A stretch of 64,000 nucleotides of DNA from contig JAWODC010000064.1 in assembly GCA_046483495.1 (NCBI GenBank), positions 1-64,000 of the forward strand. The letters run 5' to 3'. Made by a program: the position numbers. The stretch's first letter is position 1; each line of letters begins with the position of its first letter. The stretch is from Desulfobacterales bacterium (GTDB taxonomy: Bacteria > Desulfobacterota > Desulfobacteria > Desulfobacterales > UBA5616). This document shows, one piece after another, positions 45,001 to 51,000 of this stretch.

Positions 45001-48000
45001 TTTTTCGGCGTTTCATGTTTTCGAGGGCCGTTCTGAAATGCTTCAAAAACTCCGCCGGGATTTCGGATTGTTCGATTTTTCGAATAATATAAGGATTCGA
45101 ATGGTGAAACAGGAACTGAAATGCGCGGAGGTCCTCCACAAGCGTCTGACGTTCAAAATTGCTGGTATCCGTTTTAATAGCATAAAAAAGGGCGGTGGCA
45201 AGCTTTGCCGATGGTTTGATTTTAGCGGCGCGCAGGTATTCCGTGAGCATGGTGGCAGTGGCGCCGTAACTGGGGCGAATGTCCTTAAAAGCGGCCTCGG
45301 GCGCGGTGTCCGGATGATGATCGATGATCACATCGAATGTAAACCTCTGAAAATGCACATTGTGGTCCGGCTGGGAATCGACCATAACGAACCGGGCAAA
45401 CCGCTCAGGCTCTATTTGCGAGACATGGGTCAAATTCACGCCCAACAGCCGAAGCATCGTCAGGTTATCCGGGCGCTTGACGATATTGATATTGGATATG
45501 ACCACACCGGCCACTTTTCGCCACAACAGCCGTTTTACCGCCATCGCACACGCAATGGCATCCGGGTCTGCATTAATGAGTATCAATACGTTGTCTTCAC
45601 TGGTAAAATGCGTATAAAAGCGTCTCAGCCGCTCAGATGTCGATATTTTCACGATGGTCCTTCTTTTGCCAATTATTCCTTTTTTTTAAGTCCATTCTAT
45701 GACGTAAGGTCGTTAATTTCAAACCATTTTTCTCGTCTGCAGCCGTACGAAAAAAGATATGAGCTTTCTCTTGACAGTATAATGATTTTCCTGGTATTCG
45801 GCTGGTTTGGTTTAATCAATTTAGACTTCCCCTAATATAATAGGTGGCTTAATGCCGAAACAAAAAAGAGCACATAGTCGCCAGACCACTAATTGGGCCG
45901 AAGGCCTTACCATTATTATGCAGTTGGGCCTGAACATGGCGGGAAGCATCATTTTTTGTTTTTTCGTTGGATATTATATTGACAAATGGCTTTCGACAAA
46001 AGGGATTTTTACGGTGGTTTTTACTATTCTTGGCGTAATCGGTGGCGGATATACTTCATATCGGCAGATAATGGAATTCTCAGAGAAAAAAAATAATCGA
46101 AAAAACAATGAAATCGGTTAGGACGATCCAGAAAAAATACTGTTCAAGAGCCATGATGTTTTCCATTTGCATCAGCTTGGGCTTCATTCTTCTTGGAGAA
46201 AAAGCAATAGGAAAGGGAATTGTTCTTGGAACACTGTTCAGCATCATCAATTTTGTCCTTATCGGGGAAATGCTCCCTGCCCGGTTCGCCAAAGGAAAGA
46301 GAAAAACTTTCTTCATCAGTCTGGGATCGATCTTTTTCAGATACCTTCTGCTGGCGATTCCGATCGTACCTGCAGTCAAATATGACACATTCAACTTGTA
46401 TGCAACGGTCGCCGCACTCTTTTCCGTTCAACTGATGATAATAGCCGAACATATATTAGGGATTCTTCCCTTAAAACGAAAACAACAGGCCTAGCCGTCA
46501 TATCGATGCACAGGTGGAGTAGTCATGAAAGAATTAGGAAAAATTCACCAATTGATCGTTCCATTCTTCGGACATGACATGGTGTTTAATTTAGAAGTTA
46601 TCCTCATGACGTGGATCGTTATCGCACTGCTTACCGTTTTTGGAATTTTAGCGGTTCGCAAAATGGGAATCATTCCGCATTACATACAGATGGTTGGAGA
46701 GATGTTCGTTTCACAAATGTATGGAATGACCGAAGATTCGCTGGGTAAAGAACTTGCCCGCAAGTACGCACCGATGATTTGCGCTCTATTCATGTTTTTG
46801 CTGTTGTCAAATTGGCTGGGTATCATTCCTCATCTTCATGAACCTACGAAAGATTTGAATACACCATTAGGAATGGGGATCATGGGTTTTTTTGTAGCCC
46901 ACTACGTGGGCATAAAGGAGAAAGGATTCAAGGGATATTTAGGTAATTATTTCGAACCTTTTTTCTTTATGCTGCCATTGAATATCATCGATGCCCTGTC
47001 CAAGGTAATCAGCATTTCCTTCCGTCTCTTCGGCAACATCATGGGAGGCTCTATTATCATTCTGGTGGTTTCTTATCTAACTTACAGTCTTGTTCTGCCG
47101 CCGATCTTGAATGTTTTTTTCGGTCTTTTTGTCGGAACAATCCAGGCATTTGTATTTACCATGCTTACCGTTACATATATTTCATTGCAGGTAAATTAGG
47201 ATATGGCAATCGATATTCAAACTTGGGTTAAGGTGGCAGCATTTGCAGGCGGCGGGCTTGCGATGGGTCTTGGGGCCATAGGAGCGGCTATCGGTGAAGG
47301 ATATACGGCCGCATCCGCCAACGCCGCAATTTCGAGGAATCCTGAAATTTCCGGAGATGTATTCAAATCCATGCTGATGGGACAAGCCATTGCCGAATCC
47401 GCATCGATTTTTGCGCTTGTTATTGCGATGATACTTTTGTTTTCAGATTTTTCGGCAAATTCCTACGTAATGATTAGTGTTTTGCTTGCCGCCGGTTTGT
47501 GCATGGGCCTCGGAGCGGTAGGATCCGGTGTCGGATCGGGATTTCCGGGCGGTGCGGCTTGCGAAGGGATGGCCCGCCAACCCAGTGCATCAGGTCGATT
47601 AACAACGAATATGCTGATTGGATCCGCAGTAGCCCAAACGCCGGCCATTTTCGCTCTGGTGACGGCCTTCATTCTTTTATTCACTGATTTTTCAACCCGA
47701 CCCGTATATCCTACATGGGCCGCCATTTTGGGTGCGGGATTCGCTTCCGGCTTTGGAGCAATCGGATCGGGATTGGGTGGTGGTTTGGTTGCCCAGACAA
47801 GCTGTTTGGGTGTTGCCCGTCAGCCTCTCGCCGCCACTCCGGTAACAAATGTCATGCTGCTGGGCCAAGCCGTAACTCAGACCACGGCAATTTACGGATT
47901 GTTGGTCAGTTTCATTCTTATATTCAAATTTTTCCCGGCAACGCCGGCAATCGCACCCGGCATGGCCCTCTTGGGAGCCGGACTGTGCATGGGGATCGGT

Positions 48001-51000
48001 GCTATCGGGTCGGGAGTTGGTGAAGGTCTGGCGGCACGCAGCGCCGTCGACTGGATTTCCAGGAATGAGGAGGCAATCCCGGATATTACGCGAGTAATGT
48101 TGGTAGGCCAGGCAGTGGCGGAATCCACCGGCATCTATTCCCTGGTTGTGGCTTTGGTTTTAATATTTGTAATCTGACGATGTATTGTTATTTCATCACT
48201 TTTGTTTACAGGAGGATATCATGGCAATCGAAGGAGCGGACATCATTCAATCGGCAGCATTTTTGGGAGCAGGATTGGCGATGGGTCTCGGTGCAATAGG
48301 CCCGGGAGTCGGCGAAGGTATGGCTGCGGCAAAAGCATGTGAAGCCATCGGAAAAAACCCCAAAGAAGCAGGACTGCTGACCCGAACCATGTTGGTGGGT
48401 CAGGCCGTATCCGAGTCAACGGGCATTTATTCCCTCGTAATCGCGTTGTTGCTTTTATTCGTAGTTTAACCACAACATCTGGATCGGTTCCATGGAGATC
48501 ATCAGCAATATTGCACTCATCAGTATCAATGAAACATTGATCATACAGGTGCTTTCCTTTTTGATATTTTTATTGATCATCAATCGTTTGATGTTTCGCC
48601 CGATAATCGAGATGATTTCCCGGCGGGAAACCCATATTGATCATGTAAAAAGAGAAATCGAACAGGCCGAAGTTGAACTGGACCAAATGAACGCCAGGCT
48701 GAAAGAGCAGGAAACTGTCGTCAAGGAAGAGGCCTTCGATCTGAAGAAGGAGCTGGAAGAGGCCGGTGGCCGAAAAGCAAGCGGCATTTACCTGGCGGTC
48801 AAGGAACAAATTACCGCAAACAAAAAAAAGGCGGAAGAGGAAATAAATTTTCAGATCGAAGCGTCCAAGAATCAAATTAAACAAGAGGCCGAGACGGTGT
48901 CCCTATCCATCATCGAACGAATATTGGATCGGAGATTAACCTGATGTGCAGGTTCAGAAAAGTACTTAATCGGATCAACTGGCGGCTGCTCTTCGTATGT
49001 ATTTTCTGTTTTGCCGCAAAAGCGCTTGCCCAGGAGGGCGAAAACGATTGGCGTGCCACATATGATATCTTCATGATGTGGATTAATTTTTTTATTTTGG
49101 TAATTTTGTTCATAAAATTCGGCAAAAAACCGATAAAAAATTACCTGAAAGGACAAAAAGAAGAAGTCAGTGATGAGATCACCGGATTGGAGGGGCAGCG
49201 CAATGATATGCTGCGGCGGATTAAGGACATGGGCAAAGAAATGGAGGAAAGCCGGATTCGTTTTCAGGAGATAAAAGAGAAAATCATCAGCCAGGGTGAA
49301 GCGAAAAAACAGCAAATCATTGAAGAGGCCGAACTGCAAAGCAGGGTCATGCTCGAAGATGCCCAGCGACGCATCGAAAACCGTATTTTGAGCGCAAAAA
49401 AAGATGTGCATGCGCAGCTTGTAGATGAGGCCGTGGAATTAGCCTTTCAATCGATCGGACGATATATCACCGATGAAGACAACCGGAAATTTCTTCAGCA
49501 GTTTCTGGATTCAGCGGCCTTCAAGCAGCCGCTTTAACGGTTTCAAACTCATACCAACCCCGATATCGGCGTTGAGGCTGAAGAATTAAATTGTATTCAT
49601 CAGGGGTGAAGCATCAGCTTTACCCCTTTTGTTCGCTTTTACAGGCTGGAAAAAGAAATGCCTCCGGTTTCATTGACGTCGGCCAAAATCCGGTCGCCTT
49701 CCTTTATCCTGCCTTTTAAAATCTCCATGGACAGGGGGTTTTCAATATATTTTTGAATAGCCCTCTTCAAGGGCCGGGCCCCATAAACCGGATCAAACCC
49801 CTTTTCGGCCAAAAATTGCTCGGCCTCATCGGTCAGTTCCAGAGAAAGGTTCTGTTCGGAGATCCGTTCGGCAAGACGCCTCATCTGAATCTCAACGATA
49901 TCCACGATTTGTTCCCGTGTCAGGTTTTCGAAAATGATGATTTCATCGATTCTGTTTAAGAACTCGGGCTTGAATCCCATGCGGAGCGCTTCCAATACCC
50001 GTTTTTCCATTTCGTTCCGGTTGGCGCTCAGCTCCTGTATCCACTGGCTTCCCACATTCGATGTCATGATAATGATCGTGTTTTTGAAATCTACGGTTCT
50101 GCCGTGTCCATCGGTCATCCGGCCGTCATCCAATATCTGCAATAATACATTGAATACTTCCGGATGTGCTTTTTCAATTTCATCGAACAAAACAACCGAA
50201 TACGGGCGGCGCCGAACCGCCTCTGTCAAATACCCGCCTTCTTCGTATCCGACATACCCCGGGGGGGCGCCGATAAGCCGAGCCACGGCATGTTTTTCCA
50301 TGTATTCGGACATATCCACGCGGATGATGGCCTGGTCGCTGTCGAAAATAAATTCGGCAAGGGATTTGGCCAACTCCGTTTTTCCAACACCTGTCGGGCC
50401 CAAAAAAATAAATGACCCGATCGGACGGTTGGGGTCCTGCAGCCCGGACCGGGCTCGCCGCACGGCATTGGATACGGCCGATATGGCCTGGCGCTGACCG
50501 ATAACCCGTCGGCCGATACGATCTTCCATCTGCACCAGCTTCTCCCGCTCTCCTTCCATCATCTTGCTCACCGGTATACCCGTCCACCTGGAGATCACCT
50601 CGGCGATATCCTCGGCATCCACTTCCTCTTTCAGCATTTTTTTATCCGTCTGAAGGTTCAAGAGCTTTGTGTTCGCTTCATCGAGCTGCTTTTGGAGTTC
50701 GGCGGTCCTGCCGTACCGGAGTTCGGCGACTTTTGCGAGATCTCCCTCCCGTTCGGCCTGCTGCTCTTCGGTTTTAAGCCGTTCGATCTGCTCTTTTATG
50801 GAACGAATGGTCTGAATCGTTTCCTTTTCGCTTTGCCAGTGCATTTTCATGGCTCGAATTTCTTCGTTCATGGACTCGAGATCCCGCTCGATTTTGGCCA
50901 GCCTTTCCTTGGATGCAGGGTCGGTTTCCTTTTTCAACGCCTCCTTTTCGATTTCGGTTTGAAGGATTTTCCGCTGCACTTCGTCAATTTCGGTGGGCAT

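What a model noticed while it worked through the whole genome (the two positions that open the first line are those of the whole stretch)
45852..49537. Second Fo sector with a fused four-hairpin c subunit (E-Q-Q-E)
Beside a normal split F1Fo ATP synthase (Fo a/c on C69, b/b'/F1 on C81) the genome carries a third, F1-less Fo module (atpZ-I-a-c4-c-b-b') whose first c gene (g01774, 324 aa) is four c hairpins fused in one chain; only hairpins 1 and 4 keep the ion-binding Glu, hairpins 2 and 3 have Gln, and the next gene is a single-hairpin c with a two-carboxylate Na+-type motif. Boldest reading: Desulfobacterales build an alternative hybrid Na+ c-ring with about half the usual coupling sites that plugs onto the same F1, lowering the ion/ATP ratio (a gear shift for ATP-driven Na+ pumping or for synthesis at high ion-motive force). 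New would be a natural F-type rotor made of 8-helix c subunits with silent s [...]
Evidence so far: pfam.tsv: four ATP-synt_C domains in g01774 (aa 16-78, 95-158, 176-239, 257-320; call 25). Sequence: helix-2 motifs AESAS / AQTPA / TQTTA / AESTG, helix-1 GEG / GSG / GGG / GEG; g01775 (82 aa) has GEG...SESTG. 99 of the 120 best hits are 322-325 aa with the same E-Q-Q-E pattern; 5- and 6-hairpin versions (404-487 aa) read E-Q-Q-Q-Q(-Q/E). Full-length match without stops in 118 of 201 sampled Desulfobacterales genomes. Locus atpZ-I-a-c4-c-b-b' with no F1 gene within 5 kb in 4 of 4 fetched genomes of other families (single-hairpin c 89-94% identical, a 69-72%; call 128). Only one F-type F1 set (g03338-g03342, C81) and one N-ATPase set (C11) are called here. 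Full-text searches and passages of a [...]
(Added by a program. Inside this text positions count along the whole contig: contig position 1 is position 1 of the stretch shown here. "Call 12" and the like, gene names such as g00115 and contig names such as C1 are that model's own, and its searches are not shown. The text may have been shortened before it was handed on; [...] marks where a part breaks off. The agent that wrote the report below was given it as the finding of a first reader that could run no searches.)

Follow-up and report, generated by a model that had tools for sequence, protein, structure and literature searches.

The report
Spare sodium motor, four-hairpin rotor subunit
This bacterium encodes a second, sodium-type membrane motor that probably shares the single ordinary ATP synthase head, and one of its rotor genes fuses four rotor units of which the middle two cannot bind an ion, which should lower the number of sodium ions moved per ATP.

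Summary
Confirmed: atpZ-I-a-c4-c-b'-b, no F1 genes, a terminator-like hairpin after b. The 324-aa c4 has four hairpins (E65, Q145, Q226, E307). Its closest solved relative is Acetobacterium woodii c1; the single c has the full two-carboxylate Na+ motif. E-Q-Q-E is one form (22 of 66 chains) of a 2-6-hairpin family with 0-5 silent hairpins. A hairpin keeps the donor residues S/T66 and Y70 almost only when the next hairpin keeps Glu (257 of 261), as expected of a working Na+ ring, though few independent changes lie behind this. All 56 module genomes checked carry a second, probably H+-type Fo; 53 have exactly one F-type beta, none two. In six relatives the module sits in a complete operon. Best reading: an accessory Na+ Fo that shares the one F1, with a hybrid ring losing two sites per c4, more likely pumping than synthesising. 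'Half the sites' is not supported. Ring make-up, ion and direction are untested. The extra Fo was noted in one species in 2014; I found no description of the fused subunit. This scan has reported the family before on other genomes.

The parts
45852..46121 (+). atpZ-like gene (89 aa)
   Evidence: PF09527 E 1.2e-16; 33% to its counterpart on C69
46108..46494 (+). atpI, c-ring assembly factor (128 aa)
   Evidence: PF03899 E 6.3e-7
46525..47199 (+). subunit a (224 aa) with the conserved Arg167 (RLFGN)
   Evidence: PF00119 E 3.3e-51; below the N-ATPase cut-off, TIGR03306 120.9 vs 302.1
47203..48177 (+). c4: four fused c hairpins (324 aa)
   Evidence: 4 PF00137 stretches; best PDB match A. woodii c1 4BEM_J by sequence E 7.8e-23 and by fold E 7.8e-7; model pLDDT 96
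47203..47442 (+). hairpin 1: acceptor half-site intact (E32, E65); donor side degenerate (S66 A67 F70)
   Evidence: E32, E65 and F70 invariant in 50 aligned sequences
47467..47682 (+). hairpin 2: silent (S112, Q145), donor side degenerate (T146 P147 F150), RQP loop kept
   Evidence: Q145 and P127 invariant in 50 sequences
47704..47925 (+). hairpin 3: silent (G193, Q226) but donor side intact (T227 T228 Y231) for hairpin 4
47950..48171 (+). hairpin 4: full site (E274, E307, S308, T309, Y312); 60% identical to the single c
   Evidence: S308, T309, Y312 invariant in 50 sequences
48221..48469 (+). single-hairpin c (82 aa) with two-carboxylate Na+ motif E32, E65, S66, T67, Y70; strong Shine-Dalgarno site
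   Evidence: best PDB matches 4BEM, 3ZK1, 1YCE; motif as in PMC3692424
48492..48944 (+). b' (150 aa), full C-terminus
   Evidence: PF00430; NF005607 best; alignment
48944..49537 (+). b (197 aa), full C-terminus
   Evidence: PF00430; 25% to the F1-linked b on C81; alignment
49602..49627 (+). terminator-like hairpin closing the module before the convergent ClpB-like gene
   Evidence: consensus match only

Best explanation
The locus encodes a complete accessory Na+-type Fo (a, hybrid c-ring, own b'b stalk, AtpZ/AtpI) that assembles with the cell's single F-type F1, as an alternative to the housekeeping, probably H+-type Fo. The ring is mostly single c plus one or few c4. c4 closes normal Na+ sites at both of its ends (a neighbour donates to hairpin 1; hairpin 3 donates to hairpin 4; hairpin 4 donates to the next subunit) and leaves two adjacent positions empty, so each c4 removes two Na+ per turn. 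With fewer Na+ per ATP the enzyme can push Na+ against a higher sodium-motive force than a full ring, and F1 torque carries the rotor over the empty arc. I therefore think it works mainly as an ATP-driven Na+ pump beside the H+-driven synthase. Shown: genes, motifs, co-variation, copy numbers. Inferred: ring incorporation, ion, shared F1, copy number per ring, direction.
For: (1) Donor rule: S/T66+Y70 in hairpin n exactly when hairpin n+1 (or the next subunit, for the last hairpin) has Glu in 257 of 261 hairpins of 66 genome chains and 491 of 493 in 116 homologues; the reverse direction fits 51 of 261 and 42 of 493. The same direction is used for multi-hairpin subunits in PMC11738941's supplement. 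(2) Closest solved protein is A. woodii c1, which forms a 9+1 hybrid ring (PMC9171764). (3) 56 of 56 module genomes have a second a gene, 53 of 56 exactly one F-type beta, 0 of 56 two; N-type beta in only 7 of 56. (4) In 6 relatives the same genes run straight into delta-alpha-gamma-beta-epsilon and the other a-c locus has no b genes nearby. (5) Module b' and b keep full C-termini; predicted b'+b+delta complex 0.57 vs best control 0.00, weak support only (runs agree in at least 86% of contacts, partner pLDDT at least 82; the mark was reached by 116 of 157 solved and 2 of 215 mismatched pairs, but at 0.60 or under by only 18 of the solved and both mismatches; like complexes are solved). (6) Housekeeping c lacks T67 in 21 of 21 loci and Q32 in 4 of 21. 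(7) For pumping: a single Glu-to-Gln hairpin in a fused c10 ring abolished ATP synthesis in Bacillus PS3 (PMC8809890); relatives have runs of up to 5 silent hairpins, 129-164 degrees of an 11-14-hairpin ring, more than one F1 step.
Against: No protein-level evidence that the module is made or that c4 enters the ring. The donor rule rests on few independent events: 5 changes for hairpin-3 Glu, 1 for hairpin-4 Glu on a 46-row tree, only 2 and 1 independent pairs on starred branches, sign test p = 1. A. woodii's hybrid enzyme and a V-type-c enzyme do synthesise ATP at about 90 mV (PMC9171764), so silent hairpins do not prove pumping. The module is dispensable (none of 20 same-order genomes without c4 has a module-type a) and one genome has it without c4. 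The housekeeping c is a 'nearly complete' Na+ site under the rule of bioRxiv 10.64898/2026.10.01.756066, so its H+ assignment is not certain. Ring size is unknown: helix 1 has one more residue than the c11 rings. In the Brocadiia genome of L039 only the module-type a was found with one F-type beta, so there it may be the only Fo.
Confidence: 0.45

Rival explanations
1. Same machine (Na+ Fo, hybrid ring, shared F1), but it runs as a Na+-driven ATP synthase with a low Na+/ATP ratio, using the gradient made by Rnf, as in A. woodii and Clostridium aceticum.
For: A. woodii hybrid enzyme synthesises ATP above about 90 mV, and low phosphorylation potentials (30-38 kJ/mol) make few sites sufficient (PMC9171764). 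The genome has two RnfD/NqrB-family genes and a membrane pyrophosphatase. Rnf2 is constitutive in Desulfobacteraceae (PMC11887813). At 32 kJ/mol nine sites need 111 mV. In six relatives the module is the Fo next to the F1 genes.
Against: Two to five adjacent empty positions must be crossed without ion-driven torque; one such position blocked synthesis in PS3 (PMC8809890). An H+-type Fo is always present in the 56 genomes.
Confidence: 0.25
2. c4 does not set the gear: it is an assembly seed, or a brake that makes a non-conducting ring, while rings of the single c do the work.
For: Weak Shine-Dalgarno pairing of the fused gene in 42 of 42 loci; module without c4 in G034; the number of silent hairpins changes at least 17 times on a 53-row tree of subunit a, which may be tolerance rather than tuning.
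Against: Full Na+ half-sites are kept at both ends (first hairpin Glu in 67 of 67 chains, last-hairpin S-T-Y in 66 of 66), and internal sites come and go with their donors.
Confidence: 0.15
3. One reading: rings built wholly or largely of c4 (three c4 = 12 hairpins, 6 sites), about half the usual sites.
For: c4 is self-complementary: hairpin 4 donates S/T/Y and hairpin 1 accepts.
Against: A single c with E-S-T-Y was recovered from all 53 module loci of the script's set and has the stronger ribosome site; the solved precedent holds one fused subunit per ring (PMC9171764).
Confidence: 0.07
4. The module works without the F-type F1: with the N-ATPase head, as a free Na+ channel, or not at all (vestige).
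For: No F1 genes at the locus; this genome has an N-ATPase; module b subunits have longer branches than F1-linked ones.
Against: N-type beta in only 7 of 56 module genomes; intact genes inherited along family lines; complete operons in six relatives; stalk C-termini kept.
Confidence: 0.08

Closest known systems
Acetobacterium woodii subunit c1 and its F/V-hybrid Na+ ring (PDB 4BEM); Clostridium aceticum c1 + c2
   Same: Fused c gene between atpB and a single-hairpin atpE; first hairpin keeps Glu with a degenerate donor side (ETSGIF vs ESASIF), a later hairpin has Gln with intact donors (QTTGIY vs QTTAIY); best match by sequence and fold.
   Different: Four hairpins instead of two, two adjacent silent positions, two sites kept, Glu instead of Gln at position 32; no F1 genes in this operon; a second Fo coexists.
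Fusobacterium nucleatum c11 ring, two-carboxylate Na+ motif (PDB 3ZK1, PMC3692424)
   Same: Single c and hairpin 4 carry E32, E65, S66, T67, Y70.
   Different: That ring is homo-oligomeric; here helix 1 is one residue longer, so ring size may differ.
Duplicated ectopic Fo of Desulfococcus oleovorans (Koumandou and Kossida 2014, PMC4154653)
   Same: A full second Fo locus whose b groups with deltaproteobacteria while a and c group with Thermotogae.
   Different: Treated there as one species' duplication or transfer; the passages seen mention no fused c, no ion specificity and no sharing of F1. I did not check that this is the same locus type by sequence.
Archaeal multi-hairpin c/K subunits (Methanocaldococcus jannaschii triplication, Methanopyrus kandleri 13 hairpins) and V-type c
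   Same: Hairpin fusion with loss of carboxylates (PMC2359735).
   Different: A/V-type enzymes; c4 scores under the V-type K cut-offs and no V-ATPase subunit I was found in the genome.
N-ATPase
   Same: Accessory rotary ATPase thought to pump Na+; two-carboxylate c.
   Different: N-ATPases bring their own F1 and a b-delta fusion; this genome's N-ATPase is a separate locus on C11.

Membership tests
A. woodii-type hybrid-rotor subunit c1 (AtpE1) | Fused c gene next to a single-hairpin c gene, after atpB | tested here: met
   PMC7911925 passages
A. woodii-type hybrid-rotor subunit c1 (AtpE1) | First hairpin keeps the carboxylate, a later one has Gln | tested here: met
A. woodii-type hybrid-rotor subunit c1 (AtpE1) | Two hairpins, one ion site | tested here: not met
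   four hairpins, two Glu
A. woodii-type hybrid-rotor subunit c1 (AtpE1) | Encoded in a complete atp operon with F1 | tested here: not met
   no F1 genes here; met in six relatives
A. woodii-type hybrid-rotor subunit c1 (AtpE1) | Co-assembly with single c at a fixed ratio | not testable with these tools
   indirect only: donor rule, ribosome sites
Na+-translocating F-type Fo | [Q/E]32-E65-[S/T]66-[S/T/Q]67-Y70 in subunit c | tested here: met
   single c E/ESTY in 53 of 53 loci; rule in PMC2359735 and PMC11738941
Na+-translocating F-type Fo | Na+-dependent ATPase activity, Na+ protection against DCCD | not testable with these tools
   bench test
N-ATPase | TIGR03306 / TIGR03322 over cut-off, own beta-epsilon...alpha-gamma, b-delta fusion | tested here: not met
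   a 120.9 vs 302.1, single c 66.8 vs 130.85; c4 passes TIGR03322 (166.5) only by summing four hairpins; separate b' and b
V/A-type subunit K | K-family model over cut-off and a V/A-type operon | tested here: not met
   NF004913 90.3 vs 211; PF01496 not found in the genome
F-type peripheral stalk able to bind delta | Full b'/b C-termini that dock on delta | tested here: inconclusive
   C-termini present; complex prediction weak support, 0.57 vs 0.00

The most novel reading that the evidence does not exclude
Many Desulfobacterota run one F1 head on two exchangeable membrane motors, one for H+ and one for Na+, and the Na+ motor has a genetically encoded gear: a fused subunit that writes a contiguous silent arc of one to five hairpins into the ring, with sites gained and lost in step with their neighbours' ligands. 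It would be a natural F-type rotor that crosses several empty positions in a row, and an ATP-coupled way to hold a sodium-motive force above the proton-motive force.
Probability: 0.4. Interest if true: 0.85.

Novelty: new variant of a known kind. Interest (0 to 1): 0.62.

Why it matters
The ion/ATP ratio is thought to be set by ring size, and one dead site stopped synthesis in an engineered H+ ring; the only solved natural F-type exception has one empty position. A natural series with 0-5 adjacent empty positions on one scaffold would let one test how far a rotor can turn without ions and whether site number, not ring size, is tuned. One F1 serving an H+ and a Na+ Fo would change energy budgets drawn for marine sulfate reducers, which are usually modelled with one synthase. 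Cultured carriers exist (Desulfosarcina variabilis P0071; D. cetonica L028).

Tried and rejected
Expression: 11 metatranscriptome runs from 3 salt-lake studies hold part of the stretch (share 0.06-0.37); four laid as contigs cover pieces of most module genes but also the flanks, and cannot show transcription or strand: not used. Proteomics papers: the one supplement held for PMC11887813 has no AtpE/AtpB/ATP synthase hit; Table S1 of PMC5109826 lists under ATP synthase only atpB2, atpE4, atpF3/F4 and the F1 genes of Desulfococcus multivorans, not the AtpE3 named in record P0127; its figures were not seen, so this says nothing on detection. Longer fusions: among 8000 scored candidates of 568-2000 aa only one hit, a 966-aa euryarchaeal protein; weak evidence for a ceiling near six hairpins. 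Ion specificity from subunit a: no Na+-type a among the 22 PDB matches listed, dropped. Origin of the second stalk: the 42 module-only b'b pairs versus the rest has support 70, unresolved. Independent-pairs test of the donor rule: too few events. Promoter scan: 3 sites against 6.4 in shuffles, none upstream on the + strand. KNP loop of the single c as a sign of uncoupling: rejected, the loop is KNP in 17 and RNP in 17 of 53 and A. woodii c1 has KNP. Recent transfer into this genome: rejected, the a tree follows family codes. Frameshift or mis-assembly as source of c4: rejected, hairpins are 33-46% identical to each other and the fusion recurs in 23 of 40 relatives.
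Full report
OBSERVATION. The four hairpins read E32/E65-S-A-F70, S112/Q145-T-P-F150, G193/Q226-T-T-Y231 and E274/E307-S-T-Y312. 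They are 33-46% identical to each other, and hairpin 4 is 60% identical to the single c. AlphaFold2 folds four hairpins with mean pLDDT 96.0. The genome has a split F-type enzyme (a and c on C69; b', b, delta, alpha, gamma, beta, epsilon on C81) and a full N-ATPase on C11; family searches give two gamma and one full delta, and no V-ATPase subunit I.

THE FAMILY. 24 of 40 sampled relatives match c4 at E<1e-70, 23 at full length; 32 of 301 phylum genomes match at E<=1e-40, own genome included. From the fetched loci I split 69 chains into hairpins; after removing 2 duplicates and 1 truncated chain, 66 were scored. They have 2 to 6 hairpins and 0 to 5 silent ones: E-Q-Q-E 22, E-Q-Q-Q 15, three hairpins with two silent 9, E-Q-E-E 8, E-Q-Q-Q-E 5, and rarer E-Q-E, E-Q-E-Q, E-E, five- and six-hairpin forms. 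The first hairpin has Glu in 67 of 67 and the last has S-T-Y in 66 of 66. So E-Q-Q-E is this genome's form, not the family's rule; it dominates the 120 best hits (104) because those are close relatives. A three-hairpin form with a single c also occurs in a Brocadiia record (L039).

IS IT BUILT FOR A RING? In Na+ rings Glu32 and Glu65 come from one subunit and Ser66 and Val63 from the adjacent one, with Tyr70 and Thr67 in the network (PMC3692424, passages); ProAD scores a hairpin of a fused chain as Na+-binding when the previous hairpin supplies S/T-S/T/Q-x-x-Y (PMC11738941 supplement). I tested that direction. A hairpin has S/T66 and Y70 exactly when the next one has Glu (the last hairpin counted as facing a normal c) in 257 of 261 hairpins of the genome set, 191 of 195 internal ones, and 491 of 493 in 116 distinct homologues; the opposite direction fits 51 of 261 and 42 of 493. 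A polar residue at 32 goes with Glu at 65 in 259 of 261. For this protein that means two live interfaces inside or at the start of the chain (neighbour to hairpin 1, hairpin 3 to 4), a live donor to the next subunit, and two adjacent dead positions. In a 132-row hairpin tree (78 columns, FastTree, weak) Gln-type last hairpins of several E-Q-Q-Q chains nest among Glu-type fourth hairpins, and Glu-type third hairpins nest among Gln-type ones while their second hairpins have Tyr donors. The caution is kinship: on a 46-row tree without the motif columns hairpin-3 Glu and hairpin-2 donor each change 5 times, hairpin-4 Glu once and hairpin-3 donor twice, and only 2 and 1 independent pairs lie on starred branches, too few for a test. 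The closest solved protein is A. woodii c1, by sequence (E 7.8e-23) and fold, with the same pattern in its two hairpins; its ring holds nine single c and one c1 (PMC9171764, passages).

HOW MANY PER RING? Unknown. The single c pairs better with a generic anti-Shine-Dalgarno sequence than the fused gene in 42 of 42 loci where both starts could be placed, of 53 tried (means -10.5 and -4.4 kcal/mol); the fused gene often starts just after the stop of a, so coupling may replace a ribosome site. G034 (97% complete) has the module with the single c and no c4 match. Both favour a minority subunit. One c4 removes two sites: 9 of 11 or 12 of 14, not half. Helix 1 is one residue longer than in the c11 rings, so 11 cannot be assumed.

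WHICH F1? I took all 55 genomes with a fused-c match plus G034. All 56 have a second a of the C69 type. 53 have exactly one F-type beta (two cut by contig ends), three have none at E<=1e-100 (60%, 93% and 94% complete), none has two, and 7 have an N-type beta. As a control, none of 20 same-order genomes without a fused c has a module-type a (best 38% identity): the module comes and goes whole. In six genomes of other families (L051, L052, L053, L056, L059, L060) the module runs directly into delta-alpha-gamma-beta-epsilon, in L062 into delta at a contig end, and in L048 into a second b'b pair and then F1. In those six the other a-c locus shows no b genes in the stretch fetched. So either Fo can be the one written next to F1, and the count stays two Fo to one F1. 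In a b'+b tree the 19 F1-adjacent pairs of two-pair genomes form a clade (SH-aLRT 99) and the 42 module-only pairs lie outside it, repeating the family groups: an old duplication, origin unresolved (support 70). The module's a also follows family codes. Module b' and b keep their C-termini. A predicted complex of these ends with the C81 delta scored 0.57 against 0.00 for the best of 3 controls: weak support, more often wrong than right unless likely beforehand, and such stalks are solved.

WHICH ION? The single c has E32-E65-S66-T67-Y70 in 53 of 53 module loci, the full motif (PMC2359735, PMC11738941). The housekeeping c has Leu at 67 in 21 of 21 loci and Met at 32 in 4: H+ by those rules, though a 2026 preprint treats a site lacking only position 67 as possibly Na+-capable. 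The genome has two RnfD/NqrB-family genes and a membrane pyrophosphatase.

HOW IT MOST LIKELY WORKS (inference). At 45 kJ/mol, 11 sites balance 127 mV, 9 sites 155 mV and 6 sites 233 mV. A cell that makes ATP on protons and wants a sodium-motive force above its proton-motive force from the same ATP pool needs fewer Na+ than H+ per ATP. Silent runs reach 5 hairpins, 129-164 degrees of an 11-14-hairpin ring, more than one F1 step, and one Glu-to-Gln hairpin stopped synthesis in a fused PS3 c10 ring (PMC8809890, passages). Both favour ATP-driven pumping. Against this, A. woodii's hybrid enzyme synthesises from about 90 mV (PMC9171764, Discussion read), C. aceticum's is read as an adaptation for synthesis (PMC7911925, passages), and the Brocadiia genome shows only the module-type a with one F-type beta. 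I put 0.45 on pumping, 0.25 on synthesis, 0.15 on a scaffold or brake, 0.07 on an all-c4 ring and 0.08 on no link to the F-type F1.

WHAT IS IN PRINT. Ten full-text searches gave no description of a three- to six-hairpin F-type c. PMC4154653 (passages) notes a fully duplicated ectopic Fo in Desulfococcus oleovorans, b deltaproteobacterial, a and c near Thermotogae, with no fused c in the passages seen. ProAD (main text parts 1-2 of 3 and supplement part 1 of 2) handles multi-hairpin c/K generically; its tables, not seen, very likely list these genes. bioRxiv 10.64898/2026.10.01.756066 (passages; supplements closed) says hairpin duplication is mainly an A-type trait and cites A. woodii. bioRxiv 10.1101/2024.02.27.582367 (passages), PMC11887813 (passages and one supplement) and PMC5109826 (passages and supplement part 2; figures not held) do not discuss it in what I saw. 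The 4BEM structure paper and the ring-engineering paper were not held, and most subscription journals were not searched. This scan has reported the family on other genomes; those notes agree with the reading I had entered before looking and are not independent support; one is marked as partly fallen, without detail.

VERDICT. Real, conserved and widespread; a new variant of the A. woodii hybrid rotor, combined with a two-Fo, one-F1 arrangement that holds across the sampled phylum. Mechanism is inferred from sequence only. Interest 0.62.

Noticed in passing
L020 and L074 (G008): Two separate modules in one genome, one with an E-Q-Q-Q four-hairpin and one with an E-Q-Q-Q-Q five-hairpin subunit, three a genes and one beta; the second lies on a 5-kb contig and could be binning contamination.
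   Followed up: partly
L048:6703-17696: Module with its own b'b, then a second b'b pair and the F1 genes in one run: a possible intermediate between complete and F1-less arrangements.
   Followed up: partly
L075:8131-11958, L036:3456-5790, L068:6986-10380: The fused gene moves: after b at the end of the operon (L075), before a (L036), after the single c as an E-E double hairpin (L068).
   Followed up: no
L010:991-2472 (G039): c4 stands alone beside a short ORF that looks like a transposase remnant (judged by eye), while a and the single c are on another contig.
   Followed up: no
L072:8011-9672 (G013): c4 breaks off in hairpin 3 and runs into unrelated sequence in a 60% complete genome; rearrangement or assembly error.
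   Followed up: no
L035:9992-10963: E-Q-E-Q layout, like two A. woodii c1 units in tandem, with donors matching.
   Followed up: partly
L093, L094, L099, L100: Housekeeping c has Met at position 32, a clearer H+-only site.
   Followed up: no
L003:5367-13177 (G000 C11): Complete N-ATPase with a gene that looks like a cation/proton antiporter on the opposite strand inside the cluster (9899-11131; not scanned).
   Followed up: no
P0140: 966-aa euryarchaeal c-family protein, probably a whole ring in one chain like Methanopyrus kandleri's.
   Followed up: no
window 45852-47199: atpZ, atpI and a are AT-rich (39-42% G+C against 51% for the genome), while the c genes are at 52-53%.
   Followed up: no
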